The notes under the pieces: generated by a model
What the model was told of the DNA's origin: nothing
What the model saw: only the letters and a program-made list of their open reading frames with translations
Database searches by the model: none
Source of the DNA: a virus
Length of the DNA stretch: 62,384 nucleotides
IMG/VR virus record: IMGVR_UViG_3300045988_062316
Strand: one strand, 5' to 3'
Position numbers and translations under genes: made by a program
Part shown: positions 6,614 through 31,772 of the stretch, in pieces
Position numbering within the stretch: the first letter of the stretch is position 1
How the letters are laid out: the number at the start of each line of letters is the position of its first letter

Positions 6614-6665
6614 CACAAAAACAAATGCTTCCCATGCGCTTAGTGCGATTGGCGCATGGGACTTC

Positions 6666-6798: not shown

Positions 6799-6827
6799 CG
6801 CAAACCATCAACAGATCGGAGAACACC

Positions 6828-8419: not shown

Positions 8420-8488
8420 AACGCATCCCACTCAAGGACACGGCGAACTCATGGATCTGAAAGCCAGCTACAGCAAGGAAAACAAGTA

Positions 8489-10035: not shown

Positions 10036-10565
10036 TGGCCGGTGAGACCGTTATCACGATCATTGGGAATCTGACCGCCGATCCGGAATTGCGCACGACG
10101 TCCGCTGGCGCGCAGGTCGCGTCGTTCACGATCGCCAGCACGCCGCGCTCCTGGAACCGTAATACGGGCCAGTTTGAAGATGGTCAGGCTTTGTTCATGC
10201 GCTGTAGCGCGTGGCGTGATCTGGCTGAGCATTGTGCCAACAGTCTTGCGAAGGGCATGCGTGTGATAGCGCAGGGCAGGCTTACGCAACGTTCCTACGA
10301 GGCGAAGGATGGCGCGCAGCGCACGGTCGTGGAATTGCAGGTTGACGAGATCGGCCCATCGCTCAAGTATGCGACGGCGCAGGTGCAGAAGATGCAGTCA
10401 GGCGGATACCAGGGCGGCAACACCAATGGCGGTTTCGGCGGGAATGGCTATCAGCAGCCGCAGCAGGCACAGCAGCAGCCGCAGGGAGCCGACCCGTGGG
10501 CTGCGCCAACCGGCACGCCTGACAGTTTCGGCGGTTTCGGCGGAGCGCCGGAACCGGAGTTCTAA
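10032..10565 (+). CDS. ssb: Single-stranded DNA-binding protein
   Basis: OB-fold N-terminus [16 protein letters not shown]...FMRCSAWR. Gly/Gln-rich linker and acidic tip PEPEF. Confidence 0.85.
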
Positions 10566-10712
10566 ATGGTGCCATTGGCAGGATACGACCCGCCAGCATG
10601 GTGCGAACGGCATGAGTGCCCCTACTACGGACGATCATGCCCCGAATGCGAGACGGAAACGGAAGACTACTACGCGGACATCGGCGACGCCAATGTCTGG
10701 GATTTGGAGTGA
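10566..10712 (+). CDS. Small Cys-rich protein (48 aa)
   Basis: The ORF fills the ssb-rusA gap. Contains CERHECPYYGRSCPEC. Confidence 0.4.
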   Translation: MVPLAGYDPPAWCERHECPYYGRSCPECETETEDYYADIGDANVWDLE

Positions 10713-10715
10713 ACA

Positions 10716-11228
10716 TTGTTCGATTTCGACGTTTACGGGGAACCGGTCGCGAAAGGCCGTCCAAGATTCTTCGGCACGCACGCCGTCACACCGGAACGCA
10801 CACGCACGCAGGAAGAACTGGTCGCAAGCGAATTCCTACGACACTACCCACAGGCGCAACCGTTGAAAGGCGAAGTCATGATGACAATCGTCTTCTACAA
10901 AAGCCGCCACGGCAAACCCGACTTGGACAATCTGGAAAAACTCGTCAAGGACGCGTTGAACGGACTCGCCTACACGGACGACCAGCAGATCAAACTCACC
11001 CTGTGCGCCATGCTCGAACCCGACCGCATGGCATTGGGCAAACGTGTGATCGGACTGGTGAAACGACGGCAGGGAATGCCATTGACATACGGCGGCATCG
11101 AATACGAGCCACACACGGGAATCCACATCGAACCATTGGGCGGAACCATCCACGACGGCATACGCCATGCCACGGAAAGCATGAAAGGACTATTGCATGA
11201 CGCGGGCAACGATGCGCGATATCGATGA
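10716..11228 (+). CDS. rusA: RusA-family Holliday junction resolvase
   Basis: GEPVAKGRPRF and PDLDNLEKLVKDALNGLAYTDDQQI. Confidence 0.8.
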   Translation: MFDFDVYGEPVAKGRPRFFGTHAVTPERTRTQEELVASEFLRHYPQAQPLKGEVMMTIVFYKSRHGKPDLDNLEKLVKDALNGLAYTDDQQIKLTLCAMLEPDRMALGKRVIGLVKRRQGMPLTYGGIEYEPHTGIHIEPLGGTIHDGIRHATESMKGLLHDAGNDARYR

Positions 11229-11649
11229 AATGGATTTCAACATCCAAGTCTGGGATTACATGAACTGGGCTTTGGGAGACAGGAACCTTGGTTTCGACAG
11301 GCGGTTGCATTGGATGGGCGAACCGGTCAACGTCACCACGTTCAAAAACGCGGACAAGCCGGTGTTGGAAATGTTGGACGAAGCCCGCACTGTCGCCGCG
11401 GACAACGACATGCGCGTCTGGGTTGTAGTCCAACACGTCACCGGCATGGATGTCACGGGAAGCCTCGTGCTGATTCCACCGGAAGCATGGACGCGACTCA
11501 GCCAACTCGACACAAACCGGGAACTCGACGGAATCCACTTTATCCAACTGGCTGTCGGCAACGGGCTGGGAGTGGTCAGCCTCTACCAGTTCGCACTGCT
11601 CATGAACCATTTCCAACCGCTCGGACCGGACGAATCGAAGGAGGTTTGA
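11197..11649 (+). CDS. Hypothetical protein
   Basis: 150-aa ORF in the early operon. Confidence 0.55.
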   Translation: MTRATMRDIDEMDFNIQVWDYMNWALGDRNLGFDRRLHWMGEPVNVTTFKNADKPVLEMLDEARTVAADNDMRVWVVVQHVTGMDVTGSLVLIPPEAWTRLSQLDTNRELDGIHFIQLAVGNGLGVVSLYQFALLMNHFQPLGPDESKEV

Positions 11650-15294: not shown

Positions 15295-15836
15295 GCAGTC
15301 AATACAAGGTTCGCGCGCTGTATTGGAGTTACCACGACGGCTACTATCTCTTAAAACACCAGGGGGAGCTTGAAGATTTACTGAACGATGGTTGGGAGAT
15401 TTCACGGGTGGATGCCATATCGCCAACGAATTTTCCATCTGGCGCATTCGGCGCCACGAACGTCTACGTTCTCGAAAAGCAAAGCGAGGAAAAGCAAAGC
15501 GAGGACACGAAAAAGAGCAGTGTGTCAGAATTCCCCCCGCATGACATGGGTCTACGTGTGGGAATCCTCCCGCATGACATGGGTCTACGTGTGGAACTCG
15601 ACACGAACGGAACATACTACCTGAAAAGCGGATGGAAAGAACACTGCGACTGGATTTATGGGCTTGCTTGGAGGTATACGGATGGTTCCGGCATCGTATC
15701 CGCTTCACGGCCTGACAATCCTGTTCCCATCGCAATCATGAATAGCCACGTGAGGCTAGCAACCTCATTCGATGAACACGAAACCGGAACCACCAAGCAA
15801 AGCGAGGACACGAACATGAAGGAGACAAATCGATGA
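15291..15836 (+). CDS. Hypothetical protein with internal in-frame repeats
   Basis: 181 aa. Contains EKQSE x2, PHDMGLRV x2 and a third KQSEDT. Confidence 0.6.
   Translation: MSSQYKVRALYWSYHDGYYLLKHQGELEDLLNDGWEISRVDAISPTNFPSGAFGATNVYVLEKQSEEKQSEDTKKSSVSEFPPHDMGLRVGILPHDMGLRVELDTNGTYYLKSGWKEHCDWIYGLAWRYTDGSGIVSASRPDNPVPIAIMNSHVRLATSFDEHETGTTKQSEDTNMKETNR
15537..15602 (+). repeat. 33-bp in-frame tandem repeat x2
   Basis: ccgcatgacatgggtctacgtgtgg occurs at 15537 and 15570 (26 identical nt). Confidence 0.9.
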
Positions 15837-17899: not shown

Positions 17900-18712
17900 A
17901 TGGCTAGACGCGGCTACGTGCAGCTCGTGAACGGCTTCTACGACAACGACAAGATACGTGACCTCGTGCGCATGGGCCGCGCCGATTCCGTTGGCGTGTA
18001 CTGCATGGCCCTCTCGCTATGCGGCGACAGGCTCACAGACGGTTTCGTACCACGTCGCGCCATGCTCTCCAACATCGGAGCGACACCGGAACAAGTGAGG
18101 GCGCTCGTGGACGAGGGAATGCTTGAAGAGGTCGAAGGAGGCTGGCTGATCCACGACTACACCGCGCACAATCGCACCAGAGAGCAGGTATTGCACGCCC
18201 GCGCCGACGCCAAGGAACGCAAAAGCAAATCCCGATGTCACAGCAGTGTCACAGCAGTGTCACAGCGTGACATGTGTGTGACATCGGGACAAACACCAGA
18301 ACACCAGAACACCAGAACACCAAAGAAAGAGAAAGAAGAATATTCTTCTTCTTTCTCCAAAGAAATCGGCGTGAAGGATTTCGGCGATTCGCAAGAGTGC
18401 GGCGAAACGGACAGGACGCTGGCTGTGGAATATCCGAACCTCGACCTCGAATCCGCATGGCTCGCCTTCGCGGACCGCCACCAAGACGAAACACGCACGA
18501 TAGCCGACTGGACGCGCCTATGGAAAGGCTGGTGCCAACGCAGGGCCAACATGAGCGGCATACCACAAAAAACGCCACATACGCACACATGGGCGTGCGA
18601 ACACACGCTGAAACGCCTTGGCATTAAATCACGCGACGACGTGCAAGACATGACCAAAGCACAGCAAACGGCAAACCAGCTCAACAAGGAAGACCGAAAT
18701 GGAAGAACCTGA
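17900..18712 (+). CDS. Putative replication initiation/organiser protein with an internal ori-like repeat block
   Basis: N-terminal winged-helix-like domain (GFYDNDKIRDL...VYCMALSLCGDRLTDGFVP). A low-complexity linker is encoded by iterons. Confidence 0.5.
   Translation: MARRGYVQLVNGFYDNDKIRDLVRMGRADSVGVYCMALSLCGDRLTDGFVPRRAMLSNIGATPEQVRALVDEGMLEEVEGGWLIHDYTAHNRTREQVLHARADAKERKSKSRCHSSVTAVSQRDMCVTSGQTPEHQNTRTPKKEKEEYSSSFSKEIGVKDFGDSQECGETDRTLAVEYPNLDLESAWLAFADRHQDETRTIADWTRLWKGWCQRRANMSGIPQKTPHTHTWACEHTLKRLGIKSRDDVQDMTKAQQTANQLNKEDRNGRT
18236..18350. repeat. ori-like cluster: TGTCACAGC(A)G x3 plus an inverted copy, ACACCAGA x3.9, and an 18-bp AT-rich palindrome
   Basis: TGTCACAGC(A)G repeats at 18236-18267, TGTGTGACA at 18275-18283, the 8-bp repeat at 18293-18324, and AAGAAGAATATTCTTCTT at 18333-18350. 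Confidence 0.6.
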
Positions 18713-21911: not shown

Positions 21912-22201
21912 CGTCACCAACCACCAAAGAACTGCTCATGCGCGTGATCGCCGTGGAATCACCGAAACTGTTCGACGGGTCAGACAACGAGCCAATCGAA
22001 GTGACCTCCTACTCCTATCAAGAAGAAGGAACGCGTCTCTGCGATACATGCGACTATCCAGAATTACTTCTCATAGGATACCGGACACGCGGCGGAAAAA
22101 CGAAACATCTAAAGTATGAATACTTCGACCTACCAAACCTGCTCGAAACATTGGACAAGTGGGACAGGCAACACGACGATACGAGGAAGTCAGACGCATG
22201 A
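21908..22201 (+). CDS. Hypothetical protein
   Basis: 97-aa ORF. Confidence 0.5.
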   Translation: MTSPTTKELLMRVIAVESPKLFDGSDNEPIEVTSYSYQEEGTRLCDTCDYPELLLIGYRTRGGKTKHLKYEYFDLPNLLETLDKWDRQHDDTRKSDA

Positions 22202-22915
22202 AATGGTTCACCAGCGACCTGCATTTCGCACACCCATTCGTGGCCGCGCTACGCGGTTACGCGCTACCCGGATACGCTCGCGACGAATCAATCAAACAAC
22301 AGGCCGAACACGACGGCAGACAGCTCAAGGATTGCGTTGACTGGCGGAAACACGACGCCGACATCGTACAAGCGATAAACACATACGTCGGCAGGGAAGA
22401 CGAACTCTACATCCTAGGAGACATCAGTTCCGGCAGCACGTGGAGCGTAGACCAGGCGATAATGCGCATCCAGAATCTACAGGTTCCACGCAAACGCAGA
22501 CACCTGATTCTCGGCAACCACGAACTCTACGCATCCAGCCGCACGCTGGAAAAGTTGGCAAGCGTGTTCGGGGAAGTCGGAAGAGTCGGCATCACCGAAA
22601 TCAGAGACGGGCGGGGCAACAATCCACACACGGTATTTTTTAAGCCACTTCCAATGGCGTGAGGACTTCAAAGAAGCGAAACCAAAATATCAATTCTCAA
22701 CCAACTGGAATGACCCAAATCTAGCCAAATACGCGCTACCATACGTGAACAACACGCTGCTCCTGCACGGACATACGCACGCGCATGACCCGCTTGAGTT
22801 CGGCAGGCATCACAATGAGATCAACGTCGGATTGGACGCATGGTGTTTCGAGCCAGTCAACGAAGCCGAATTGGTAGACAATTGGCTACACACTGCGTTA
22901 AACGTAACCGAGTGA
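22198..22915 (+). pseudogene. Metallophosphoesterase interrupted by a frameshift at a T6 run (22636-22641)
   Basis: N-terminal part has SDLHFAHP, ILGDISSG and ILGNHE. The C-terminal part, with LLLHGHTHAHD, continues in another frame once one T is removed (reading ...HTVFLSHFQWRE...). Confidence 0.7.
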
Positions 22916-22934
22916 TCTACAATGGCACATGAAT

Positions 22935-22965
22935 GGGGGCGGATTCAAACCACCCCCACTATTTT
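22935..22965. terminator. Bidirectional terminator between convergent genes
   Basis: GGGGGCGG-attcaaa-CCACCCCC followed by a T-run. Confidence 0.6.
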
Positions 22966-23463
22966 TCAGTAATCAACACCCTTGGATTTCAATTCCTCCA
23001 AAAAATCATCCCACTGCTCTCTCGTCGGAATACTCAACCCTGATTCTGGATGCCAACGCGCATACCAGCCAATCAAACAATCTCCCTGCGCACGTTGGAA
23101 AAATCCATCAAGCCAAGACGGATCGTCCGCTTCCCTACGCGCAAGTTCCAAAGCCTCCCTGCAAGCCGGTTCCATATGATCTTCAAACCACTCAACATCC
23201 GCATCCGTGCTTGAATAAATGGCGCGATAGATAGCTTCCGGGTTAACACGGAGCGACACCAACATCTCAGCCTTCACACGTGTCTTAAATTCTTCACGCC
23301 TGTCCCAATCGTACATTCCGTCAGCAATCAGCTGCTTAACATACGGGTCACAATGTTCAGCCAAAAACCACGCACGGTCTGTGATATCTCTAAGCGTTTG
23401 GAACAAACACCTCACATCGTCGGAAAGCGGGCCGACCCGTCGAGGGAAATCACTCAATCTCAT
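22966..23463 (-). CDS. Hypothetical protein (last gene of the leftward island)
   Basis: 165-aa ORF. Confidence 0.6.
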   Translation of the reverse strand: MRLSDFPRRVGPLSDDVRCLFQTLRDITDRAWFLAEHCDPYVKQLIADGMYDWDRREEFKTRVKAEMLVSLRVNPEAIYRAIYSSTDADVEWFEDHMEPACREALELARREADDPSWLDGFFQRAQGDCLIGWYARWHPESGLSIPTREQWDDFLEELKSKGVDY

Positions 23464-23489
23464 TTGTCAATCCTTGTATTATCAGTGTT

Positions 23490-24389
23490 TTAACGAGTGT
23501 TCGCAAGTCGCTGGAATCCGGTTTCGTCATCCTCCTTGCCCAGGTAATCCTGCAATCCATCGCCAGCCCTGCCATCCAGCCCGCGACGGGACATGTCGTA
23601 ATAGTCGAGCATCTGCGGACTGCTCCACCCGCCTGCGGCCATGATGTCCCTGTCCGGCACGCCAGCGTCACGGGAGAGCGTGCAGAACGTTCGCCGCAAT
23701 GAATGCGGCGAGATTCCAGGCACGCCGACCCGCAATGCCACGGACGATACGATGCCCACGGCGGTCTGCTGTCGCAGACGCGCGCCGGAATCCTCACGGA
23801 ACACCGCACCGTGCCTACGCCCGCCAATGAGTCGTGCGAGAGCCTCGGACGCCTCGGAGGGAATGGCCACACGCTGGGACCAGTCGCCCTTGCGGTCGAA
23901 CCGCACCCACGGACGCCCGTCATCCAGATGACAGTCTTCGACATCCAATCCGAGCGCCTCGCTGACCCTCGCACCGGTAAGCAGCAGCAGACTGCACAGG
24001 GCATCCGTCCGCGCATCCATGCCACGCGCTTCGGCCAGAAAAAGCCTAGCCTGCTCGCGGGTGAGGTACGAGCCATCCGAATGGCCGTACATTTTCGGCC
24101 TGCGCACATGCTCGCCCGGATCGCAGTCGATATACCCCTCCTCGCAGAGGTAGCGGTAGAGGCCGCATACGACGCTCAGAGTCTTGTACACCGTGTTTTT
24201 CGCTGCTGGCCGCATGCCGTCGCCATAGGCGGCGAACACCTCGATATGGGTGCGCTTCGCCCGTAGCATGTCGATGCCATTATCCGCACACCAGCGGAGC
24301 CATCGCGATATGATGCTCCGGTACCCCGCCCTTGTACCCGGCGTCAGGCCGACGAGAAAACCGGCGATCATGTCGCTCACCGTTTCCAT
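23490..24389 (-). CDS. XerC/D-like tyrosine recombinase (third recombinase in this genome)
   Basis: TGARVSEALGL, HSLRRTFCT, AAGGWSS and DYY resemble an R..HxxR..Y catalytic layout. No long arm-binding N-terminus. Confidence 0.75.
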   Translation of the reverse strand: METVSDMIAGFLVGLTPGTRAGYRSIISRWLRWCADNGIDMLRAKRTHIEVFAAYGDGMRPAAKNTVYKTLSVVCGLYRYLCEEGYIDCDPGEHVRRPKMYGHSDGSYLTREQARLFLAEARGMDARTDALCSLLLLTGARVSEALGLDVEDCHLDDGRPWVRFDRKGDWSQRVAIPSEASEALARLIGGRRHGAVFREDSGARLRQQTAVGIVSSVALRVGVPGISPHSLRRTFCTLSRDAGVPDRDIMAAGGWSSPQMLDYYDMSRRGLDGRAGDGLQDYLGKEDDETGFQRLANTR

Positions 24390-25237
24390 ATGCGCACCGT
24401 CTCCTTGCAGATCAAAGGCTTGTCGGCCGGACCTTTGACGAATGGCGGTATCCACTGCCTACGCCTCAGCGAATGATTCGGGCCATACGCCTGATCCCTC
24501 CAGAAGCCGCGCACGATGAAACGGTGCGAATACTCACGTCGCACCCGCTCGTCATCATCGGCGCTTCCGCCCGGACGATGCAGGTTCTCACGCAGCACCA
24601 GCATCTTGACTTTGCGTATTTCCGGGTCGAAACGCTGCGGCAGGGGATGCGCCATATCGGGTTTCGCTGGTTTTGCCTCGCAGATATGCGGTTCCGCGCT
24701 CAACGCCCACACCGCGTGCAGCAGGCCGCAGAGCCACTGGAAGCTCCCGTCGTTCTCGCGGACGACGGGAGGGGCGAGCGAGACGATGGGGAGGCCGAAT
24801 GAATCGGCGTGCATCTCCTTGATCCCCACGGGATTGTCGGTAAACACCGATATCTTGACGCTCTCGCGCCCCGCATCCTGCCATAGGATCGCGGCTACGC
24901 GAGTTTCGCCGAACCCGTCGTTATCGAGGTGGAATGAGATGTGCTGCACGTCGCCCTCGAAAAATATCATCCCGCATTGCGCCGGCGGATCGGGTTCCGG
25001 AAAATCTCCGGCCTGCACGGTGTCCTCGGCCAGACGCGTCATATCTCGGCTGACCCACCACAATTGCGCGGTTCTGATCTGATCGGTCATGCTCCAGGCG
25101 TTGGCCATCATAGCCTCGTATTGAGTTTGCGAGCCGAGTTTCCTAAGCCTGTATTGGGCGAAGTCGGCGAGTTTGTCGCGGATGAGCGGAAGGTGTGATG
25201 GGATGAGGCGAAGTCGCTTGTTTTTTCCGCGCGTCAT
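24377..25237 (-). CDS. Hypothetical 286-aa protein translationally coupled to the recombinase
   Basis: 13-nt overlap with the recombinase start. C-terminus reads HRFIVRGFWRDQAYGPNHSLRRRQWIPPFVKGP. Confidence 0.6.
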   Translation of the reverse strand: MTRGKNKRLRLIPSHLPLIRDKLADFAQYRLRKLGSQTQYEAMMANAWSMTDQIRTAQLWWVSRDMTRLAEDTVQAGDFPEPDPPAQCGMIFFEGDVQHISFHLDNDGFGETRVAAILWQDAGRESVKISVFTDNPVGIKEMHADSFGLPIVSLAPPVVRENDGSFQWLCGLLHAVWALSAEPHICEAKPAKPDMAHPLPQRFDPEIRKVKMLVLRENLHRPGGSADDDERVRREYSHRFIVRGFWRDQAYGPNHSLRRRQWIPPFVKGPADKPLICKETVRIWKR

Positions 25238-25238
25238 G

Positions 25239-25559
25239 TCAGGCCTCGACTAGCGTGTAACGGTCTCCGGTCTTCTCGTCGAAGTCGCCGAGCTTAAAAC
25301 CATATTCCGCAAGCTTCGCGTTTGCCGCGGCCTCCCATTCTTCTTCGTCTGCGCCGTACACGTCTTCGATTTTGTCGGCGTCGTGGTCGAGGTCTCCGTC
25401 TTCCGGGTCGGTATACCACTGGTAGTCGAAACCCCTCCAGATGCCCTTGCCGGTATTCGCGTCGGCAAGGAGGAGAACGTCAAATGCGTCACTCTGGTAG
25501 ATTGCGATTGGTTTGATGGAGATGTTCTCGTTGGTGTTGATGTCGATTGCGGTGGTCAT
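25239..25559 (-). CDS. Small highly acidic protein
   Basis: 106 aa rich in D/E (DPEDGDLDHDADKIEDVYGADEEEWE). Confidence 0.6.
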   Translation of the reverse strand: MTTAIDINTNENISIKPIAIYQSDAFDVLLLADANTGKGIWRGFDYQWYTDPEDGDLDHDADKIEDVYGADEEEWEAAANAKLAEYGFKLGDFDEKTGDRYTLVEA

Positions 25560-25641
25560 TTTGTTTGTCCTTTCTTTTTGCTGACATGATTTTTATTAGA
25601 GTGGAGTAATAAACGAGTCGGGTGTATCGAACAGGCTGATA

Positions 25642-25845
25642 TCAAAAAACATGCCCGACCGCGCATGATCGTTGCACATCCACCTGCGAACCCTCCAAAC
25701 CGGCATCATGAATAAGCCACGCCTCCAACTCCACGTCAGGAATCACACTGGAATGACCGTAAGCATACAAGAAGCCAGTCGGAGTCGTGAGTTCAAGCCG
25801 ATACCCGCCACCAGAGATCCGGTAATATCGCAGCCGCCACATCAC
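25642..25845 (-). CDS. Small hypothetical protein
   Basis: 67-aa ORF overlapping the next gene by 4 nt. Confidence 0.45.
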   Translation of the reverse strand: MMWRLRYYRISGGGYRLELTTPTGFLYAYGHSSVIPDVELEAWLIHDAGLEGSQVDVQRSCAVGHVF

Positions 25846-26081
25846 GGCACCTCGATCTCGTCACGCCACGACAGCATGTCGCGCGTAATCATATCCCCGG
25901 ACGACACCTGCACGTAAAGCCACGCACGATAACCCAACCGCGCCTCACGATCACGTTCCAGCCACGCGGACAACCATTCCACCCACAACGAAACAGGCGA
26001 ACGATACCGCCACACATCACAACCACGCACGCGATCATGACAAACAAAACGATAAACCGGCATAACAAACACCCCTCTCAC
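25842..26081 (-). CDS. Small hypothetical protein
   Basis: 79-aa ORF with 4-nt overlaps on both sides. Confidence 0.45.
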   Translation of the reverse strand: MRGVFVMPVYRFVCHDRVRGCDVWRYRSPVSLWVEWLSAWLERDREARLGYRAWLYVQVSSGDMITRDMLSWRDEIEVP

Positions 26082-26605
26082 TTAAGCCCATCGAACATGC
26101 GCGAGTAAGCCACCTGAACATTCCCAAGCCCACTGCGGTACGCAGTCATACGATCCGCCGCCTTATCCGACACGGCAAGCCGCAACCGCCTATCATCCGG
26201 AAACGCAACCTCACGCAACATTTCACCCTCGCTCACCGAACGCATCACGACATGCTGCGGAAACATCGCATCGAACACGCATACGCACAACCCGAAAGCA
26301 ATCAACTCGGTTTCATCGGACACGTAGCGAAAATCCTGCCGGGCACGCTCCAAAACATGCACGCGATCAAAAGACGACGAATCCAACAATCCAGCGAACT
26401 CACGAATAGTGTCATCATCCAAGCCGCCGCACAGCGGCTCAAACTGCACCACATCGATCAAATCATCCCGCATGTCGGGAATCAAACCGCCCGAACCAAC
26501 GTCAGGCGTGTAACAATCATTGAAACGTGCCCACCATTGACCGACAACCCGAACGACATAGCCGACAATCTCGGACGGCAACGAAACATTATTAGAAACT
26601 TCCAT
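26078..26605 (-). CDS. Hypothetical protein
   Basis: ATG at 26605 after AAGGAG. Confidence 0.55.
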   Translation of the reverse strand: MEVSNNVSLPSEIVGYVVRVVGQWWARFNDCYTPDVGSGGLIPDMRDDLIDVVQFEPLCGGLDDDTIREFAGLLDSSSFDRVHVLERARQDFRYVSDETELIAFGLCVCVFDAMFPQHVVMRSVSEGEMLREVAFPDDRRLRLAVSDKAADRMTAYRSGLGNVQVAYSRMFDGLK

Positions 26606-26701
26606 GATAGAATCTCCTTTGCAATTGCTCACACAAACTGATTGATTGCAGTGGGGGAGCGGCCTTCACCCGCACTCCCGCACACTCTTTTGCTCAGGTG
26701 T

Positions 26702-27049
26702 TCAGGCGTGCCACTGCACCACACTCACACCGTCAACAAGCACATACGACGTGCCGTCACCATTACCAGCCGTCGAAGCATCCCACTTGCACACATGCTG
26801 ATAGGCGGAACCCCCATCGACCGAGACGGAACCATCCTCGACGAAACAAGCCGGAATATCCGCCCAAGGAAACGCGGAAGCGACGGAACCAGGATTATCA
26901 CGACGCCACGCATTCCAAGACTCGACCGTCTCAGCAGACGCGCTACCCAACGCCTGGGCTTGATCCACGGATTCCAAACGACCGCCAGCACAAACGGCTG
27001 CGACAATCACCGCAATGAGAAAAACGTTACGAACCTTATTCATTAGCAT
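26702..27049 (-). CDS. Small secreted or membrane-anchored protein
   Basis: N-terminal MNKVRNVFLIAVIVAAVCAGG is signal-like. Confidence 0.55.
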   Translation of the reverse strand: MLMNKVRNVFLIAVIVAAVCAGGRLESVDQAQALGSASAETVESWNAWRRDNPGSVASAFPWADIPACFVEDGSVSVDGGSAYQHVCKWDASTAGNGDGTSYVLVDGVSVVQWHA

Positions 27050-27156
27050 GGTTTGCTTCTTTCCGGCAGACCATGTAAACTATGATCTGCCTGATTATTT
27101 TTGTTGAGAGGTAATTAAGGCGCCGCCACCGCTCAGAACAGTGGCGGCAAATTCTT

Positions 27157-27990
27157 TTATGCGGCAAGCTTCAGATTATGGCTCGCGAGATAGCTGGCAA
27201 TCTGCTCTTCAAGCCGCGCGTCAACGTCCGTGTAATAGTCGCGATACGCGATCACACCGCCCGTACCGTCGAACGTGACATACGCGACGCGACGGCCTTT
27301 GGAATCACGGAAGCCACGAGGCTTATGCACGTAAGCGCCGAATACGTCGGCTAGTTCCTTGACTGATTTTCCACCTGGAATAGTCACTTTGCGCACTATG
27401 ATCGTGCTGGAAGTCCTGACAACCTCATGCGGTTCCGTTTGCGGTGGAACTTCGGGAATCTCAGCCGTGACCGGCTCCGGTTCGACAACCTCAACCGACT
27501 GTGCGACAGGCGCCACCGGTTCGACAACAGGCAGATCATCATAAGTCTCACACATCTCAGGATGATCCTGCTCCATTGGAGTCAGAAACGACACGTCACG
27601 CGACACAACCATGCCGCCATGCTCCCACGACAACACCCAGCCACGTTCATGGTCAACATCAGGAAGACTCAACCCGTGAGCCGTATAATCCCCGCAATCA
27701 TCGGACGCAATCAGGCCGCCACGTTCCACGATTGACGGCACGTCACCAATCTCACGCATCGCCTGCGCATAATCCGCTCCATTAGGGTCAAGCCACACAC
27801 CACCCTCGGCACGATACGCGGCGGCAACACCACGCACCGCCTGAGCATTCACGACACCTGGAACCATACGCCACGACTCGACGTTATCCGACATGCCGAA
27901 ACGCCACACGCTCGGACTGTCAACCGAATTGAAAAACATGAAAACACCATCGGAATTGACGGCCCACAAACCGTTAACCTTATTAGACAT
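27157..27990 (-). CDS. Hypothetical protein with a Pro/Glu/Val-rich linker
   Basis: ATG at 27990 after AAGGGG. Linker reads VVEPVAPVAQSVEVVEPEPVTAEIPEVPPQTEP. Confidence 0.55.
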   Translation of the reverse strand: MSNKVNGLWAVNSDGVFMFFNSVDSPSVWRFGMSDNVESWRMVPGVVNAQAVRGVAAAYRAEGGVWLDPNGADYAQAMREIGDVPSIVERGGLIASDDCGDYTAHGLSLPDVDHERGWVLSWEHGGMVVSRDVSFLTPMEQDHPEMCETYDDLPVVEPVAPVAQSVEVVEPEPVTAEIPEVPPQTEPHEVVRTSSTIIVRKVTIPGGKSVKELADVFGAYVHKPRGFRDSKGRRVAYVTFDGTGGVIAYRDYYTDVDARLEEQIASYLASHNLKLAA

Positions 27991-28082
27991 TTCAAACCCC
28001 TTAAAAAGAAAACGTTGAAAACAAAGGGCGCGGCACCACCGCCACGCCCCGAAACTAAGCAACCGAAACCCAGCAGACGCAA

Positions 28083-28655
28083 CTAGCGCAACCCGCCGCA
28101 AATATCCTTCACGCCGGTGAGATAATCCAACTCGCCCTCGAAATCATGGCAATCCGTCGAAAGCTCACCATCATGACAACTTTCATCCGCATAATACGAG
28201 AAATTGACGCAAAGAGGGAAATCAGGATCGATACCCACACAGCATGCTGAACCATCCATGAAAACCACCTTGATAGTGTCCTCGGGACACATGCCGGATA
28301 CGATTTCCGTATTCTTGACATTCAACCCGTGATTGTAGATCTCACTGGAAAGCTGATAAAGATCAATTTCACAGATTGGGTATGCGCTCCGGTCGAGTTC
28401 CGTCACATCCACGAACGTATTCGGCTGCGGGCCGTATTCTGCGAAGTCTCCCTCACCGGCCACCATGTCGTTCGCCTGTTCGATGCAGTAATCGACGTCT
28501 TCCACGATGTAGGCGAGATCCGGTACATCGACGGTTTTCAGCCCTCCGACCTCGAAGAAGTCAGCCGACCAGTCGGGGCTGTATTGCGTGTTTTCCTCGT
28601 CCCAATCGCGGATAGAGATTTCCACTGCCTTGCTGTTGTCAATAAGCCTAATCAT
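28083..28655 (-). CDS. Acidic, Cys-rich hypothetical protein
   Basis: 190-aa ORF, D/E-rich. Confidence 0.55.
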   Translation of the reverse strand: MIRLIDNSKAVEISIRDWDEENTQYSPDWSADFFEVGGLKTVDVPDLAYIVEDVDYCIEQANDMVAGEGDFAEYGPQPNTFVDVTELDRSAYPICEIDLYQLSSEIYNHGLNVKNTEIVSGMCPEDTIKVVFMDGSACCVGIDPDFPLCVNFSYYADESCHDGELSTDCHDFEGELDYLTGVKDICGGLR

Positions 28656-28737
28656 TTTGTTTTATCCTTATCTTTTGATAATCGACGGTGATTGATGGGC
28701 GTGATTGATAGGCTCACGCCCGAAAGCCTGGAATAAG

Positions 28738-29043
28738 TCAGCGCATACGCTTGCGATTAGGACAATTGGGATATTCGATGGCCTCGCATTGCAAGGCGCT
28801 CTCCAATTCCAACCGTCGTGCATTGCTGCACAAGAAACACGCCTCATCACTCTTGCGACACGATTCACGCCACAAGGCGTCGGCGCGTTTCGGATTATCG
28901 CAGTCGCTTTCCGCGATGAAACAGCGTAAGGCGCTCTTACGGCAACGTTCAGCCTCATTCCTCAGCCTGCTGGATTCAGGCGTTACCGGTAGGCCATAAT
29001 ACGGATAACGATCCGCATAACCGCACTTGCTGCACATCGTCAC
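28738..29043 (-). CDS. Cys-rich small protein
   Basis: 101 aa with about 10 Cys (CSKCG...). Confidence 0.5.
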   Translation of the reverse strand: MTMCSKCGYADRYPYYGLPVTPESSRLRNEAERCRKSALRCFIAESDCDNPKRADALWRESCRKSDEACFLCSNARRLELESALQCEAIEYPNCPNRKRMR

Positions 29044-29348
29044 GCCTCACTCTCGCAATAGGATTCAAGCCGCGCCACGCACGACTCATCGCCCGGAACC
29101 CGGTGCATATCAAGCCATTGTTCAGCAGTGACCACGGTATAACGCTCACCCAGTTCGCCGTTGCGCTTGACATTGCGGCTGACCACATACACCACGCCAT
29201 CAATCCACCTGACAGCGACGTTATTCCATGCCACCTCACAAGGCTCAAGACCATGCTCACGGCCAAAATCCCACGCCCTATTACGCCGGCTGACCTGATC
29301 GGAACACCTATCCTTGAACCATTGCACAAGATCGCCATAAGCAAACAT
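29040..29348 (-). CDS. Hypothetical protein
   Basis: ATG at 29348. Confidence 0.5.
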   Translation of the reverse strand: MFAYGDLVQWFKDRCSDQVSRRNRAWDFGREHGLEPCEVAWNNVAVRWIDGVVYVVSRNVKRNGELGERYTVVTAEQWLDMHRVPGDESCVARLESYCESEA

Positions 29349-29356
29349 GATGCACC

Positions 29357-29716
29357 TCACTCAGCAAGCAGTTCGGAAACCGCATTGCCAAACTCTTCAG
29401 AGAAAAGCCAAGTACGGTAGAAAACCTCAAGTTCTTCAGGATTATCAAGGGGCGCGTCATGCGCGTAATCGCTAGCGATAAACCCACTCCAATCATCCGA
29501 GAACATGACGTTCTGCATATTCTCGGAACTCTTGCTAGCGTTGCACGTCCAGGAACCGTTATCGTTGCCGGTAACCGGAAGCTCAACGTCGTCATACTGT
29601 CCCCAGCACCATTGCTCAGTTGGCGTAATGCCGTCCGCATAATCCTTAAGGGTTTCAACAATTTCATCCCGCAAGTCGGAACGATATGCCGTTGCAAAAG
29701 TATTTTCATCACACAT
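29357..29716 (-). CDS. Acidic small protein
   Basis: ATG at 29716. D/E-rich, 119 aa. Confidence 0.5.
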   Translation of the reverse strand: MCDENTFATAYRSDLRDEIVETLKDYADGITPTEQWCWGQYDDVELPVTGNDNGSWTCNASKSSENMQNVMFSDDWSGFIASDYAHDAPLDNPEELEVFYRTWLFSEEFGNAVSELLAE

Positions 29717-29877
29717 TTTTGACACTCCATTCCAGCCCCCTTGCTAAAATGAGAGGGCTCTAGTCAGATTGGTTAATGATTACTGAGCAATTGAGCCGGA
29801 TAGTTGCAGCTATCCGGCTCTACTCATTCGTGAGCTAGCCACGTCATAAAGACACGTCTAGCCCTGGCGGATTACAT

Positions 29878-30093
29878 TCAATCCGCCGAAGTTTCAGAAT
29901 CAGAATCAAGTAGCTTACGTGGATTAGCTACGCGCAAAGCGTCACACAAGCGCAAGGCAGTATCAAGCGACAACGTGCGCACGTTTCGTTTCCTCGTCTC
30001 AATCTGAGCAATTTCGACGTAATGCACGCCGCTTTTATCTGCTAACTGCCGTTGCGTTAAACCGCGTTTCGTTCTTAATTCTTTTAATCCCAT
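29878..30093 (-). CDS. XRE-family HTH regulator, first gene of the leftward island
   Basis: ATG at 30093 after GAAGGGAG. HTH segment LTQRQLADKSGVHYVEIAQIETRKRN. Confidence 0.75.
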   Translation of the reverse strand: MGLKELRTKRGLTQRQLADKSGVHYVEIAQIETRKRNVRTLSLDTALRLCDALRVANPRKLLDSDSETSAD

Positions 30094-30121
30094 GGCCTTG
30101 CTCCCTTCTTGGGTTAGGGCC

Positions 30122-30171
30122 ATCGTAGACCACTCAGACAGCGCTGGGCAATTCCATGCCGGAGACAGCGC
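30122..30171 (-). promoter_or_regulatory. Putative island promoter with two GCGCTGTCT operator-like repeats
   Basis: On the minus strand: TTGCCC (30146-30151), 18-nt spacer, TACGAT (30122-30127). AGACAGCGC lies at 30136-30144 and 30163-30171. Confidence 0.4.
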
Positions 30172-30494
30172 CACGTTAGCGACTCAACGACGGTTCAGCC
30201 TTGCATAATGTGAGGGTGCATCATGCCTAGTCGCATTCCGCCGCGTCATTGTCGCGTCCACTCTTCAGTTGTCAAACGTCCATGCCGCCGATTCTTCGGG
30301 GCTTCCGGGTTGCCGTCCCGGTCTGCGTATCCGCTGCTGTATCTTTCCTTTCTCTTCGTTGTCGTTTGCTTGATGGCTCTCACTATACACGCTATCCAGT
30401 CAGATAGCAAACCAAGACAACACAGACACCACATAAACCATTGCAAACACTAGCATTCATCGGCGTGTCGCAACCACATGACGGCAACGAAAAA

Positions 30495-30570
30495 CCACGT
30501 CGCCACGTCACGGCCACGACGGGCACGACGTCCAGGGCACGACGTGGCCACGACATGCACGGCCACGATC
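30495..30570. repeat. Iteron-like cluster of seven CACG(A/T)(C/T) motifs
   Basis: CACGTC x2, CACGAC x4 and CACGAT x1, often written as GGCCACGA or GGCACGACG, within 76 bp of non-coding DNA. Confidence 0.8.
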
Positions 30571-30818
30571 GCATACAAAGGAACGTGCCCGCGCGATACC
30601 ACACGACACGCCAAAACACAATCATACAAACGTTCCAATGTTGCACCATGCAACAAACACCCCCGTGGGGGAGCCTCCCGCCCGGCCCTTCTGCTGGGGC
30701 CGGTGGGACAATAGCAGAAATAGTGCGCGGGTTTTTGAAAAGTTCGCGCACAAAACGTGACGCCTGCAACCTCTCGTCTCGCTCTGCGTATGGATTGAAA
30801 GCGTTTCAAAATCAAGTT

Positions 30819-30855: not shown

Positions 30856-30930
30856 CATCATTAGATGATTTTGGCTGGTGCGGCATTGGCGTGCTGGCTT
30901 TGCAATTCTGTTGGCACAGCCTTTCGGTTG

Positions 30931-30955
30931 TCGGGTTCGATTCCCGAGGTTTGCT
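30931..30955 (+). other. Orphan tRNA-like T-arm plus acceptor strand (not a complete tRNA)
   Basis: TCGGG-TTCGATT-CCCGA followed by GGTTTGC-T. No matching 5' acceptor strand or anticodon arm within 100 nt upstream. Confidence 0.4.
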
Positions 30956-31183
30956 CTAGGTTTCATGGGGGTAGCTGCCTGTGAGACTGATGGTATTGCT
31001 CGAATATCCCTGCTGGAACATGTGGGGGACAAGAGGCTCCCTGCCTTAATCAGGCGGTTGATGACCGAAGGGGAGGCACGGCCAAACGGGTGCACATGTA
31101 TGCATGTTCCTTGCCGTTGGTGGTAAAAACCATTCCACCATGCCGAACGTCTTTCCGACTTGGACGTTAACTAGGTCGGGTAT

Positions 31184-31255
31184 ATGGCATTGGTGCAACC
31201 GGTAGCATGGCGGTCTCCAAAACCGTCGATGTTGGTTCGAGTCCAACATGCTGTG
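31184..31255 (+). tRNA. tRNA-Trp: tRNA-Trp (anticodon CCA)
   Basis: Manual fold. Acceptor ATGGCAT/ATGCTGT (two G-U pairs), D stem GTGC/GCAT, anticodon stem GCGGT/ACCGT with loop CTCCAAA, T-arm GTTGG-TTCGAGT-CCAAC. Confidence 0.75.
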
Positions 31256-31377
31256 CTCAGCCTACCCACAGGTTGTGGGAGAGGTCTTCGGAGTCGTCTT
31301 GTGGCGGCTCTAGTTTTAGTTGACCCGCCTAGTCTGCGGGAACAGTCTCCTGAGTCGTTGCGGCGGCTCTTGCTTTT

Positions 31378-31462
31378 GGATGCTTGGCAGAGTGGCTTAT
31401 TGCACCACCTCGCTAAGGTGGCGACCGGGAACGGTCCGGGGGTTCGACTCCCTCAGCATCCG
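31378..31462 (+). tRNA. tRNA-Ser: Type II tRNA-Ser(GCU)-like with a non-canonical anticodon loop (C at position 33)
   Basis: Acceptor GGATGCT/AGCATCC, anticodon stem CCACC/GGTGG with loop TCGCTAA, variable arm GACCG-ggaa-CGGTC, T-arm GGGGG-TTCGACT-CCCTC. Confidence 0.6.
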
Positions 31463-31584
31463 CGCGCCGTGGCTGGCGGTAAAAAGCCATTTTTGCCATT
31501 GGATTTCCTTTTGGCGGTTTGGGTTAGATGACGGGCAGCCCCCATGTTTTTGGTGAGTGTGGCGTGGGAGTTGTCTGTTCTTTT

Positions 31585-31666
31585 GCTTTGGTGGCGGAAT
31601 GGGTAGACGCGGCGCACTCAGAATGCGTTGTCTTGTGACGTGTGGGTTCGACTCCCACCTGAAGCA
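31585..31666 (+). tRNA. tRNA-Leu: tRNA-Leu (anticodon CAG), type II
   Basis: Acceptor GCTTTGG/CTGAAGC, D region GCGGAATGGGTAGACGC, anticodon stem GCGCA/TGCGT with loop CTCAGAA, T-arm GTGGG-TTCGACT-CCCAC. Confidence 0.75.
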
Positions 31667-31772
31667 CTTGGGTTGGCTGATCTGAGAACTTTTCCTGCTG
31701 GGTTGTTTCCCCTTTGGTTTGATTTCTCCTGCTCAGCACCGGCCAGCCCTGTTTTTTCTTTGTGGGGTTCGT

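What the first reader, a model, noticed from the sequence alone, without database searches (positions are those of the whole stretch)
22966..30174. 7-kb leftward accessory island of mostly small acidic or Cys-rich proteins led by its own HTH regulator
Thirteen tightly packed minus-strand ORFs sit between the rightward early and late operons. The island is bounded on the left by a bidirectional terminator (22935-22965). On the right it is bounded by an XRE-type regulator with a promoter carrying two GCGCTGTCT repeats.

Most products are small and unrecognisable. Several are strongly acidic (25239..25559, 28083..28655, 29357..29716). One is Cys-rich (28738..29043) and one has a signal-like N-terminus (26702..27049).

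This composition is typical of phage anti-defence (DNA-mimic, anti-restriction or anti-CRISPR-like) or superinfection-exclusion loci expressed under a dedicated regulator. The distal end of the island carries a recombinase pair, described in a separate finding. None of the proteins matches a family I can name, so it is a good place to look for new counter-defence functions.
Basis: inference. Interest (0 to 1): 0.7.

Follow-up and report, generated by a model that had tools for sequence, protein, structure and literature searches.

The report
Variable accessory-gene region of a Bifidobacterium phage
This is a real but ordinary kind of feature: a cargo region of a Bifidobacterium prophage whose small genes of unknown function are swapped between near-identical phages, headed by a self-repressing regulator with a conserved folded RNA leader, so it is a fair but unproven place to look for counter-defence genes.

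Summary
The 14 minus-strand ORFs at 22966-30174 are real. Codon bias and dN/dS (mostly 0.1-0.4) support them, and the acidic, Cys-rich, signal-bearing and XRE-HTH products are as described.

The region is not one operon. Terminator-like hairpins split it into about five units.

The window is a whole Bifidobacterium prophage (77-nt att-like repeats at both ends). Its own integrase and ImmR/ImmA/Cro switch lie elsewhere.

Gene content differs cassette by cassette between phages that are 92-99% identical in their flanks (span 3.2-8.5 kb, about 74 ORF families). It is therefore accessory, not essential.

The "GCGCTGTCT repeats" are the arms of a covarying RNA hairpin inside a conserved two-domain 5' leader (30140-30255). 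The likely promoter lies upstream (30382-30410). Its spacer palindrome co-varies perfectly with five HTH recognition-helix types, which implies autorepression.

This matches the architecture of Aca-controlled anti-defence operons. However, no cargo protein matched any known defence, anti-defence, replication or structural family, by sequence or, for two proteins, by fold.

ac106, o286 and a Xer-like recombinase form a separable module. In other species it sits at prophage ends.

An anti-defence role is plausible but unproven.

The parts
22933..22958 (.). Hairpin (8 of 9 bp stem, 7-nt loop) with a T-run on the + strand. It is the terminator shared by the rightward early operon and the leftward island.
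   Evidence: Read directly from the sequence. The same hairpin follows the recombinase directly in relatives that lack o165.
22966..23463 (-). o165: 165 aa, pI 4.7, function unknown. Variable cassette, found in 7 of 48 islands.
   Evidence: No hit in Pfam, PADLOC, NCBIfam or PDB sequence search. One weak PHROG hit to an unknown-function family (phrog_36773, E 0.0067).
23490..24389 (-). Xer-like tyrosine recombinase, 299 aa, with no arm-binding domain. It is a second recombinase, not the prophage integrase.
   Evidence: PF00589 at 1.8e-23. NCBIfam XerD/XerC hits score 68-84 bits, far below the 280-335-bit cut-offs. R (TGARVSE), HxxR (HSLRR) and Y (LDYY) are read from the sequence. It is 84-97% identical across relatives.
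24377..25237 (-). o286: 286 aa, basic, unknown fold. Its stop overlaps the recombinase start. It belongs to a large uncharacterised family.
   Evidence: phrog_15934, function unknown, 3.4e-32. All 240 homologues found are hypothetical proteins, and the named ones are from Bifidobacterium. 6587 cluster representatives at E<=1e-3. AF2 pLDDT 73.5, with no PDB fold match at E<0.1.
25239..25559 (-). ac106: 106 aa, pI 4.05. Homologues sit just upstream of o286 in B. moukalabense (71% identity) and B. panos (31%).
   Evidence: dN/dS 0.25-0.28.
25650..25671 (-). Terminator-like hairpin plus T6, after o67.
25642..26632 (-). o67, o79 and o184: three overlapping small ORFs (67, 79 and 184 aa) of unknown function. 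o79 and o184 are widespread but diverged (37-98% identity).
26702..27049 (-). sig115: 115 aa with an N-terminal signal or membrane-anchor segment. It is the only membrane or secreted candidate in the island.
   Evidence: Sequence. phrog_19904, function unknown, 1.5e-8. dN/dS 0.21-0.39.
27122..27148 (-). 13-bp-arm hairpin after o314.
27157..27990 (-). o314: 277 aa. N-domain, then a Pro/Glu-rich linker, then a roughly 90-aa C-domain. In relatives the same C-domain is fused to a DnaN-like sliding-clamp domain.
   Evidence: dN/dS 0.11-0.17.
28025..28050 (-). Intrinsic-terminator-like hairpin (11 pairs, 8 of them GC) with a T-tract, between ac190 and o314.
28083..28655 (-). ac190: 190 aa, pI 4.05, 9 Cys. 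It is a gene-sized cassette: 28063-28688 is replaced by another gene in a phage that is 97% identical in the flanks.
   Evidence: AF2 pLDDT 80.1. No PDB match. The N-domain matches only uncharacterised 78-150-aa phage proteins in BFVD.
28738..29716 (-). cys101 (10 Cys, basic), o106 and ac122 (119 aa from ATG 29716, acidic). Variable cassettes of unknown function.
29793..29820 (-). 28-bp near-perfect palindrome or hairpin between the HTH gene and ac122. No T-tract.
29878..30093 (-). 71-aa XRE/Cro-type HTH regulator, the predicted autorepressor of P2.
   Evidence: Pfam HTH_3 at 2.2e-11. The recognition-helix type co-varies with the P2 palindrome.
30140..30255 (-). Conserved structured 5' leader RNA. 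Domain 1 is a 77-nt interrupted hairpin (30255-30179).
   Evidence: 96.6% of cells paired. 16 of 35 pairs carry compensatory changes. 0 of 500 shuffles reach the observed value on any of the five measures, and slid controls give at most 5 such pairs. Single copy in the window (143.9 bits; next best 12.9 bits). No Rfam family matches there.
30382..30410 (-). Promoter-like site P2: TTGCTA-17-TATAGT, with the palindrome CTATCTGACTGGATAG (30392-30407) in the spacer. This is the predicted operator of the HTH.
   Evidence: The perfect CTATC-N6-GATAG palindrome occurs only here in the window.

Best explanation
The region is the hypervariable cargo region of a temperate Bifidobacterium siphovirus (B. 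pseudocatenulatum/adolescentis group). It lies between the end of the rightward early operon and the tRNA/HNH/terminase start of the late operon, on the opposite strand.

It is built from gene-sized cassettes that are exchanged between related phages by recombination in conserved intergenic linkers.

At its head is a 71-aa HTH protein that represses its own promoter P2 by binding a palindrome in the promoter spacer. Transcription then passes through a roughly 280-nt leader holding a conserved two-domain RNA structure before reaching the HTH gene and the cargo genes.

This burst-then-shut-off design, together with small acidic cytoplasmic cargo proteins of no known family, is most like Aca-controlled anti-defence or host-takeover operons. 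I therefore take the cargo to be mainly host-interaction (counter-defence) proteins made early after genome entry.

The distal ac106-o286-Xer-like recombinase trio is a separate, independently mobile recombination module that happens to be lodged here.

Shown: the genes are real; the content is variable; the HTH type and the operator co-vary; the RNA pairing co-varies; the recombinase module is separable.

Inferred: autorepression itself; the timing of expression; read-through of the internal terminators; any counter-defence activity.
For: Context. The window is a complete prophage, with an exact 77-nt terminal repeat. A 452-aa integrase sits beside that repeat, and an ImmA-like protease, a repressor and a Cro-like gene sit at 2147-3404. 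The island is therefore not the lysogeny module.

Variability.
- In 47 related loci plus the window, the span from HTH to recombinase is 3.2-8.5 kb and holds 74 ORF families.
- An anchor outside the island was also used. Phages 92-99% identical at that anchor protein lack win 22270-26937 (L269/L270), replace ac190 and the recombinase module (L271), or lack o286 and the recombinase (L279).
- Breakpoints fall in intergenic linkers (28062/28063 and 28688/28689).
- GC content varies from 51% to 61.5% along the island.

Regulator. Thirty distinct relatives fall into five palindrome types that match five recognition-helix types with no exception. The window's perfect palindrome occurs only once in its 62 kb.

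Leader RNA. Many G.U pairs fit only the island-sense strand.

Precedent. HTH Aca repressors bind operators in their own operon promoters, and structured 5' UTR motifs occur in such operons (PMC13551039; PMC9410906).

Cargo. Three proteins have pI 4.05. The genes are under purifying selection. Homologues of ac190, ac122 and cys101 also occur in other phage backgrounds, a few kb from an endolysin-like gene.

Relatives' cargo. A Cas7-like gene (Cas_GSU0053, 5e-24) lies just beyond the recombinase in some relatives, and a DUF4160/DUF2442 pair lies within some islands.
Against: - No cargo protein matches any known anti-defence, defence or DNA-mimic family.
- ac190 and o286 have no fold match in the PDB.
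- No Acr or dbAPIS library could be searched.
- Unlike typical acr-aca operons, the HTH is the first gene.
- A hairpin and three terminator-like sites separate it from most of the cargo, and the operator is not repeated upstream of the other units. HTH control of the whole island is therefore unproven.
- The hairpin arms vary independently of HTH type, so the HTH probably does not read the RNA stem, unlike Aca2.
- The leader's folding energy is unremarkable (z = -1.0).
- A second promoter-like site (TTGYCC-18-TACRAT, about 30151-30122) just upstream of the HTH gene cannot be excluded.
- In relatives the o314 slot can hold a DnaN-like clamp fusion. Part of the region may therefore serve replication.
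Confidence: 0.5

Rival explanations
1. A cluster of morons, that is, lysogenic-conversion or prophage-encoded defence and superinfection-exclusion genes. In this reading the units are expressed from the resident prophage. P2 runs at its autoregulated level while the main repressor silences the flanking lytic operons, and the products protect the lysogen from other phages.
For: - The region is on the opposite strand to both lytic operons, and each unit ends in its own terminator-like hairpin.
- In B. moukalabense, B. tsurumiense and a mouse-gut Bifidobacterium, the homologous HTH/o286/recombinase block lies between the lysis genes and the prophage end. That is the classic moron position.
- sig115 has a signal or membrane anchor.
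- Relatives carry a toxin-antitoxin-like DUF4160/DUF2442 pair.
- The five HTH/operator specificity types resemble the heteroimmunity-like diversification expected if resident copies act on incoming phages.
Against: - PADLOC found nothing in ten cargo proteins.
- Only one of about 12 cargo proteins has a membrane segment.
- The cargo proteins are small, acidic and lack enzyme domains, which fits inhibitors better than defence effectors.
- Clear sigma-70-like promoters were not found upstream of the internal units.
Confidence: 0.25
2. An early host-takeover or replication-accessory region with no role in the defence arms race, analogous to the non-essential leftward early genes of lambda's PL operon. 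It would modulate host replication, recombination or physiology.
For: - It lies directly after the early operon.
- The o314 slot holds a DnaN-like clamp fusion that shares o314's C-terminal domain in relatives.
- One pan-island family hits a RusA-like PHROG.
- o79, o184, sig115 and o314 homologues persist, although diverged, in most islands.
Against: - None of the window's own proteins hits a replication or recombination family, except the recombinase.
- Contigs of near-identical phages lack most of these genes (L269/L270).
Confidence: 0.15
3. A nested mobile element. The HTH...o286-recombinase block would be an integrative element or cassette-capture platform that inserted into the phage, with the Xer-like recombinase moving the cassettes.
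For: - The recombinase is 84-97% identical across relatives, whereas o286 and the HTH range from about 50% to 100%.
- The o286-recombinase block occurs at different genome positions in different phage types.
- The fam8-fam9 gene pair is found on either side of the o286-recombinase pair.
- GC content is 61.5% over 24-25 kb, against 51-55% in the rest of the island.
Against: - No repeated att- or attC-like sites were found between cassettes.
- The similarity shared by the fam8-fam9 pair in its two contexts ends inside a gene, not at a defined site.
- The recombinase's odd C-terminal tail is explained by a simple deletion between microhomologies.
- Islands of the same lineage exist without the recombinase yet are equally variable.
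- The recombinase is co-oriented with the cassettes and downstream of them, unlike an integron.
Confidence: 0.07

Closest known systems
Aca-controlled anti-CRISPR/anti-defence operons (acr-aca loci; PMC9410906, PMC13551039)
   Same: - A small HTH regulator is encoded in the locus.
- A palindromic operator lies inside its own promoter (inferred here from perfect co-variation of operator and recognition helix).
- The 5' UTR holds a structured RNA.
- The neighbouring genes are small, fast-turnover genes of unknown function.
- The locus lies in a (pro)phage.
   Different: - The HTH is the first gene rather than the last.
- No cargo gene is homologous to a known Acr or other anti-defence protein.
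- The RNA stems vary independently of the HTH type, so the HTH probably does not bind them.
- The locus is 7 kb with internal terminators, rather than a compact 1-2-kb operon.
- The host is an actinobacterium.
Morons and lysogenic-conversion cassettes of temperate phages; prophage-mediated defence loci of mycobacteriophages (from my own knowledge of that literature)
   Same: The units are independently terminated and lie on the strand opposite to the lytic operons. Their presence varies between close relatives. In other Bifidobacterium prophages the homologous block lies between the lysis genes and the att site.
   Different: Expression in the lysogen is untested. No toxin, defence or membrane-exclusion homology was found. 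A dedicated autoregulator and a long structured leader are not typical of morons.
DNA-mimic anti-restriction proteins (Ocr, ArdA)
   Same: Three products are small with pI 4.05.
   Different: There is no sequence similarity for any of the three. For ac190 there is also no fold similarity to anything in the PDB. The folds of ac106 and ac122 were not modelled.
Xer-type tyrosine recombinases, and the Rin invertase of bifidoprophages (PMC6109161)
   Same: A short tyrosine recombinase with a SAM-like core-binding domain and a catalytic domain, and no arm-binding domain. It is a second or third recombinase in a bifidobacterial prophage.
   Different: - It scores far below the XerC/XerD equivalog cut-offs.
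- It is not next to tail-fibre genes or invertible repeats, whereas Rin is.
- It is always translationally coupled to the uncharacterised o286 protein.
- Its substrate site is unknown.
Phage HK022 put RNA, a cis-acting processive antiterminator (from my own knowledge)
   Same: Two adjacent stem-loops lie in the leader just downstream of a phage promoter, upstream of several intrinsic terminators.
   Different: There is no sequence or Rfam relationship. The element is single-copy. Antitermination is pure speculation here.

Membership tests
Aca-controlled anti-defence (acr-aca type) operon | A small HTH (or RHH) regulator is encoded within the operon. | tested here: met
   71-aa product of 29878-30093. 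Pfam HTH_3 at 2.2e-11. PHROG transcriptional regulator or repressor families.
Aca-controlled anti-defence (acr-aca type) operon | An inverted-repeat operator lies in the operon's own promoter (autorepression). | tested here: met
   A palindrome sits in the spacer of TTGCTA-17-TATAGT (30382-30410). Five palindrome types pair with five recognition-helix types in 30 distinct relatives, with no exception. The perfect palindrome occurs once in the window. Binding itself cannot be tested with these tools.
Aca-controlled anti-defence (acr-aca type) operon | A structured RNA motif in the 5' UTR is bound by the Aca protein. | tested here: inconclusive
   A covarying two-domain RNA is present. Its stems vary independently of HTH type, which argues against sequence-specific reading by the HTH.
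Aca-controlled anti-defence (acr-aca type) operon | At least one co-transcribed gene is a known or demonstrated anti-defence gene. | tested here: inconclusive
   No hits in Pfam, PHROGs (named families), NCBIfam, PDB sequences or Foldseek. No Acr or dbAPIS library was available. Activity is not testable here.
Moron / lysogenic-conversion cassette | The gene is flanked by its own promoter and terminator. | tested here: inconclusive
   Terminator-like hairpins follow four units. Convincing sigma-70-like promoters were seen only at P2.
Moron / lysogenic-conversion cassette | The gene is present or absent among otherwise closely related phages. | tested here: met
Moron / lysogenic-conversion cassette | The gene is expressed from the repressed prophage. 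| not testable with these tools
   Needs lysogen RNA-seq.
DNA-mimic anti-restriction proteins (Ocr/ArdA type) | A small, strongly acidic protein. | tested here: met
   pI 4.05 for ac106, ac190 and ac122.
DNA-mimic anti-restriction proteins (Ocr/ArdA type) | Sequence or fold similarity to a known mimic. | tested here: not met
   ac190 has no PDB sequence hit below E 0.4 and no Foldseek PDB hit below E 0.26. ac106 and ac122 have no Pfam, PHROG or NCBIfam hit. Their folds were not modelled.
Superinfection-exclusion membrane proteins | Membrane or secreted localisation, and homology to a known Sie protein. | tested here: not met
   Only sig115 has an N-terminal hydrophobic segment. Its only hit is phrog_19904, of unknown function. 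PADLOC gave none.
XerC/XerD chromosome-dimer resolvases | Scores above the curated equivalog cut-off. | tested here: not met
   XerD 82.4 bits against a cut-off of 329.6. XerC 67.9 bits against 335.
Tyrosine recombinase superfamily | PF00589 catalytic domain with the R...HxxR...Y residues. | tested here: met
   PF00589 at 1.8e-23. TGARVSE, HSLRR and LDYY are read from the translation.
Prophage integrase of this phage | Lies next to the attachment site that bounds the prophage. | tested here: not met
   The 77-nt terminal repeat and the 452-aa integrase are at 60833-62384. A relative with the same o286-recombinase pair carries a separate 391-aa integrase.
Integron | intI is divergent from the cassette array at attI, and attC repeats separate the cassettes. 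| tested here: not met
   The recombinase is co-oriented with the cassettes and downstream of them. No repeat family was found between cassettes.

The most novel reading that the evidence does not exclude
The conserved two-domain leader RNA (30140-30255) would be a new class of phage cis-regulatory RNA. It would gate the whole island, for instance by making RNA polymerase resistant to the four internal terminators (put-like), or by being read by a conserved phage or host factor through its invariant CCGGCAUGGAAUUG loop. One HTH-repressed promoter would then deliver a single timed burst of a swappable counter-defence arsenal. Separately, ac106-o286-recombinase would be a previously undescribed three-gene site-specific recombination system of Bifidobacterium prophages.
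Probability: 0.12. Interest if true: 0.75.

Novelty: new member of a known kind. Interest (0 to 1): 0.42.

Why it matters
Bifidobacteria carry unusually many defence systems, and their phages are poorly characterised experimentally. This region gives a concrete, bounded list of about ten small proteins that are under purifying selection, are swapped between near-identical phages, and are invisible to all the profile and structure libraries tried here. That is the kind of list from which new counter-defence (or defence) proteins are usually recovered.

It also gives two directly testable regulatory predictions:
- five HTH/operator specificity pairs;
- a covarying leader RNA with no Rfam match at that position.

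Finally, it flags a widespread uncharacterised partner protein of a Xer-like recombinase. None of this is surprising in kind. The value is as a well-mapped starting point.

Tried and rejected
- Close phage relatives in GenBank. Megablast gave only a 46-nt match.
- PDB sequence search for five ORFs gave nothing meaningful.
- PADLOC and NCBIfam gave nothing, apart from sub-threshold Xer hits for the recombinase.
- AlphaFold plus Foldseek-PDB for o286 and ac190 gave no match at E<0.1. BFVD returned only uncharacterised small phage proteins for the ac190 N-domain.
- Homologue searches for o286, ac190 and o314 returned only "hypothetical protein" entries, and those named are from Bifidobacterium.
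- Direct-repeat operator idea. I considered that the two GCGCTGTCT copies are direct-repeat operators. I rejected it because the direct repeat is not conserved in relatives, whereas the inverted pairing is, with compensatory changes.
- TTGACA-16-GACAAT site at 30275-30248. I rejected it as the conserved promoter because its -10 varies among relatives and it lies inside the conserved leader.
- Island recombinase as the phage integrase. Rejected.
- Site-specific capture of the fam8-fam9 cassette at the recombinase 3' end. I rejected it because shared similarity ends inside fam9, and fam9 carries the same C-terminal tail in a phage that lacks the recombinase.
- A second copy of the leader RNA in the window. 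None was found.
- One viral-contig scan was wasted on a mis-spaced pattern. The bare 14-mer scan returned mostly chance hits.
- Distant o286-family members were checked for a linked recombinase. The contigs were short, or showed arrays of unannotated 250-290-aa genes with no called recombinase, so this was uninformative.

Full report
**What the window is**

The window is bounded by an exact 77-nt direct repeat (1-77 = 62308-62384) that looks like the 3' half of a tRNA. A 452-aa tyrosine integrase (60833-62191) lies beside the right copy. An ImmA-like metalloprotease (2147-2590), an HTH repressor (2624-3037) and a divergent Cro-like gene (3126-3404) lie near the left end. An endolysin is at 58872-60155.

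The large terminase is 75% identical to a human-faecal phage contig and about 35% identical to Gordonia and Streptomyces phages. Island proteins have 93-95% identical homologues in Bifidobacterium pseudocatenulatum and 67% in B. adolescentis.

The window is therefore a complete temperate bifidophage from attL to attR. Its canonical lysogeny functions are not in the region under study.

**Observation check**

Fourteen co-oriented minus-strand ORFs occupy 22966-30174. dN/dS against relatives is mostly 0.1-0.4, and 0.08-0.13 for the Cys-rich ORF.

The acidic (pI 4.05, three proteins), Cys-rich (10 of 101 residues) and signal-bearing products are as described. The last ORF is an XRE-type HTH. The left hairpin (22933-22958) and the two GCGCTGTCT copies are present.

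Start codons need correcting: HTH ATG 30093 (71 aa), o314 ATG 27990 (277 aa), recombinase ATG 24389 (299 aa).

**Internal structure**

The region is not one operon.
- A canonical terminator-like hairpin with a T-tract follows ac190 (28050-28025).
- Further hairpins follow o314 (27148-27122) and o67 (25671-25650, with T6).
- A 28-bp palindrome follows the HTH gene (29793-29820).

The region has 21 terminator-like sites against 10.9 +/- 3.7 in shuffles.

The predicted units are:
1. HTH
2. ac122-o106-cys101-ac190
3. o314
4. sig115-o184-o79-o67
5. ac106-o286-recombinase-o165

**Comparative picture**

Sixty loci were fetched through o286 and eighty through ac190. In 47 relatives plus the window, the distance from HTH to recombinase ranges from 3.2 to 8.5 kb. 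My crude ORF clustering gives 74 families, 49 of them in more than one locus.

Counts over these 48 islands:
- HTH 43
- o314, o79 and o184, 32 each
- sig115 26
- ac190 18
- ac122 17
- ac106 15
- o165 7
- cys101 6
- o67 4
- o106 3

To avoid anchoring inside the island, I also fetched phages through the 178-aa protein next to the HNH gene. Among phages 92-99% identical there:
- L269 and L270 lack window 22270-26937.
- L271 replaces ac190 (28063-28688) with a different 114-aa gene. It also replaces 22927-25556 (ac106-o286-recombinase-o165) with three other genes.
- L279 lacks o286 and the recombinase.

Breakpoints sit in conserved intergenic linkers. GC content ranges from 51% to 61.5% along the island.

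A leftward island is always present at this position, but its content is not conserved.

**Regulation**

The sequence upstream of the HTH gene is conserved for about 300 nt. The two GCGCTGTCT copies are not conserved as a direct repeat. They belong to a 7-bp inverted repeat (30172-30166 with 30146-30140) around a nearly invariant 19-nt loop. Pairing is 100%, 4 of 7 pairs carry compensatory changes, and 0 of 500 shuffles reach the observed score.

Together with a 77-nt interrupted hairpin (30255-30179), it forms a two-domain element. Over 23 distinct sequences, 96.6% of cells pair. Sixteen of 35 pairs carry compensatory changes, against 3.0 +/- 1.4 in shuffles and at most 5 in slid controls. 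One caveat applies: the structure was taken from the window's own fold, which inflates the percentage paired but not the compensatory counts. Frequent G.U pairs fit only the island-sense RNA.

A covariance model finds a single copy in the window (143.9 bits; next best 12.9 bits). It finds copies only in islands headed by the short HTH type, including one in B. panos. Rfam has no match there.

About 230 nt further upstream lies TTGCTA-17-TATAGT (30410-30382). Its spacer holds the palindrome CTATCTGACTGGATAG. In 30 distinct relatives, five palindrome types pair without exception with five HTH recognition-helix types, while the hairpin arms vary independently. The window's perfect palindrome occurs only there.

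I infer that the HTH represses its own promoter, and that the mRNA carries a roughly 280-nt structured leader. A second promoter-like site close to the HTH gene (TTGYCC-18-TACRAT) cannot be excluded.

**Cargo function**

Pfam, PHROGs, NCBIfam, PADLOC and PDB sequence searches gave no informative hit for the unknown ORFs they covered. Each library covered most of the unknown ORFs, and PDB sequence search covered five.

AlphaFold models of o286 (pLDDT 73.5) and ac190 (pLDDT 80.1) have no PDB fold match at E<0.1. The N-domain of ac190 matches only uncharacterised 78-150-aa phage proteins.

A pan-island scan of relatives found the following:
- a DUF4160/DUF2442 pair;
- a DnaN-like clamp domain fused to o314's C-terminal domain;
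- extra HTH proteins;
- just beyond the recombinase in L004 and L005, a Cas7-like protein (Cas_GSU0053, 85.6 bits against a cut-off of 25).

The hotspot therefore collects heterogeneous cargo. Some of it is suggestive of defence or counter-defence, but the window's own proteins remain unassigned.

**The recombinase end**

The 299-aa recombinase has the PF00589 domain and the R/HxxR/Y residues, but it is far below the XerC/XerD cut-offs. It is always translationally coupled to o286. The o286 family is large (6587 cluster representatives at E<=1e-3) and has no Pfam match.

In B. moukalabense, B. tsurumiense and a mouse-gut Bifidobacterium, the o286-recombinase pair lies at a prophage end, between the lysis genes and host DNA. 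It is preceded by small HTH proteins or, in B. moukalabense, by an ac106 homologue. Where the junction of the circular form is visible, the phage carries a separate 391-aa integrase.

Several islands of the window's own lineage lack the pair. It is therefore a separable module of unknown recombination function. It is not the phage integrase, and it is not placed like the Rin invertase described for bifidoprophages (PMC6109161).

The recombinase's odd C-terminal tail (DDETGFQRLANTR) is shared with the fam9 HTH protein of relatives. A deletion explains it.

**Interpretation**

A self-repressing small HTH, a structured 5' UTR and fast-turnover small genes match the regulatory design reported for Aca-controlled anti-defence operons (PMC9410906, PMC13551039). 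That design gives a burst on genome entry followed by shut-off. It is the best-supported working model (confidence about 0.5), but it rests on analogy.

The differences are these:
- The HTH is the first gene.
- The RNA stems do not track HTH type.
- Terminators intervene between the HTH and most of the cargo.
- No cargo gene has known anti-defence homology.

The main rival is a prophage-expressed moron/defence cluster (about 0.25). It is favoured by strand, terminators and the moron-like position of the homologous block in other species. A non-defence early accessory role (about 0.15) and a nested mobile element (about 0.07) are less likely.

**Verdict**

This is a real, well-delimited, ordinary kind of phage feature: a new member of a known kind. 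It has three useful specifics:
- a list of unassigned cassette proteins;
- a five-type HTH/operator system;
- a covarying leader RNA with no Rfam match at that position.

Noticed in passing
window 1-77 and 62308-62384; 60833-62191: An exact 77-nt direct repeat at both window ends resembles the 3' half of a tRNA (GGTTCAAGCCC T-arm). A 452-aa tyrosine integrase lies beside the right copy. The window is therefore probably a whole prophage from attL to attR, or a circular contig with a terminal overlap.
   Followed up: partly
window 2147-3404: The canonical immunity switch lies far from the island: an ImmA-like metalloprotease (phrog_87), an HTH repressor (phrog_16278) and a divergent Cro-like gene (phrog_9103).
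   Followed up: partly
window 30975-31149 (+): Sub-threshold match to the Rfam manA RNA motif (31.7 bits against a gathering score of 55.2; E 3.6e-5). It lies just upstream of the tRNA-Trp/Ser/Leu cluster at 31184-31667.
   Followed up: no
window 30929-30947 and 30490-30575: A T-arm-like sequence (GTCGGGTTCGATTCCCGAG) that is not called as a tRNA, and a run of CACGAC/CACGTC-type repeats. Both lie in the 1-kb ORF-free stretch between the HTH promoter and the tRNA genes. They could be a late promoter, a cos site or an origin.
   Followed up: no
window 22159-22662 and 22745-22915 (+): The metallophosphoesterase at the end of the early operon is split into two ORFs, both hitting phrog_547. The orthologue in the close relative L271 is an intact 237-aa protein. 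The window copy is therefore frameshifted, either a pseudogene or a sequencing error.
   Followed up: partly
L004 and L005, 12162-12887 (+): In two relatives a 241-aa protein with a strong Cas_GSU0053 (type I-G/I-U Cas7) match lies just beyond the recombinase and its terminator (85.6 bits against a cut-off of 25). A phage-borne Cas7 fragment could act as a Cascade decoy.
   Followed up: partly
relatives' islands, e.g. L002 8824-9078, L015 8177-8437, L040 1982-4069: Islands of relatives carry a DUF4160/DUF2442 pair (toxin-antitoxin-like). They also carry a 695-aa protein with a DnaN-like clamp domain fused to the same linker and C-terminal domain as the window's o314.
   Followed up: partly
window 23490-23530; L040 8233-8278; L271 1096-1140: The last 12 residues of the window recombinase (DDETGFQRLANTR) are the native C-terminus of an HTH protein (fam9) in relatives, including a phage that has no recombinase. 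This looks like a scar from deletion of a two-gene cassette between GGAGGAT microhomologies.
   Followed up: yes
L285 (Logan SRR12487008 contig), 771-11616: A distant member of the o286 family (509 aa) sits in a run of about ten unannotated 230-290-aa genes, with no recombinase called nearby. The family (6587 cluster representatives) is broader than its association with the recombinase.
   Followed up: no
L147 14532-15497: The B. tsurumiense relative has a third tyrosine recombinase, embedded among minus-strand genes near the lysis and tail-fibre genes. This is the arrangement described for the Rin shufflon invertase of bifidoprophages.
   Followed up: no
window 15477-15597, 1620-1685, 18230-18289: Short tandem repeats (33-nt units at 15532-15597 and 1620-1685) and a 23-nt-arm inverted repeat with a 14-nt gap (18230-18289) lie in the early region.
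   Followed up: no
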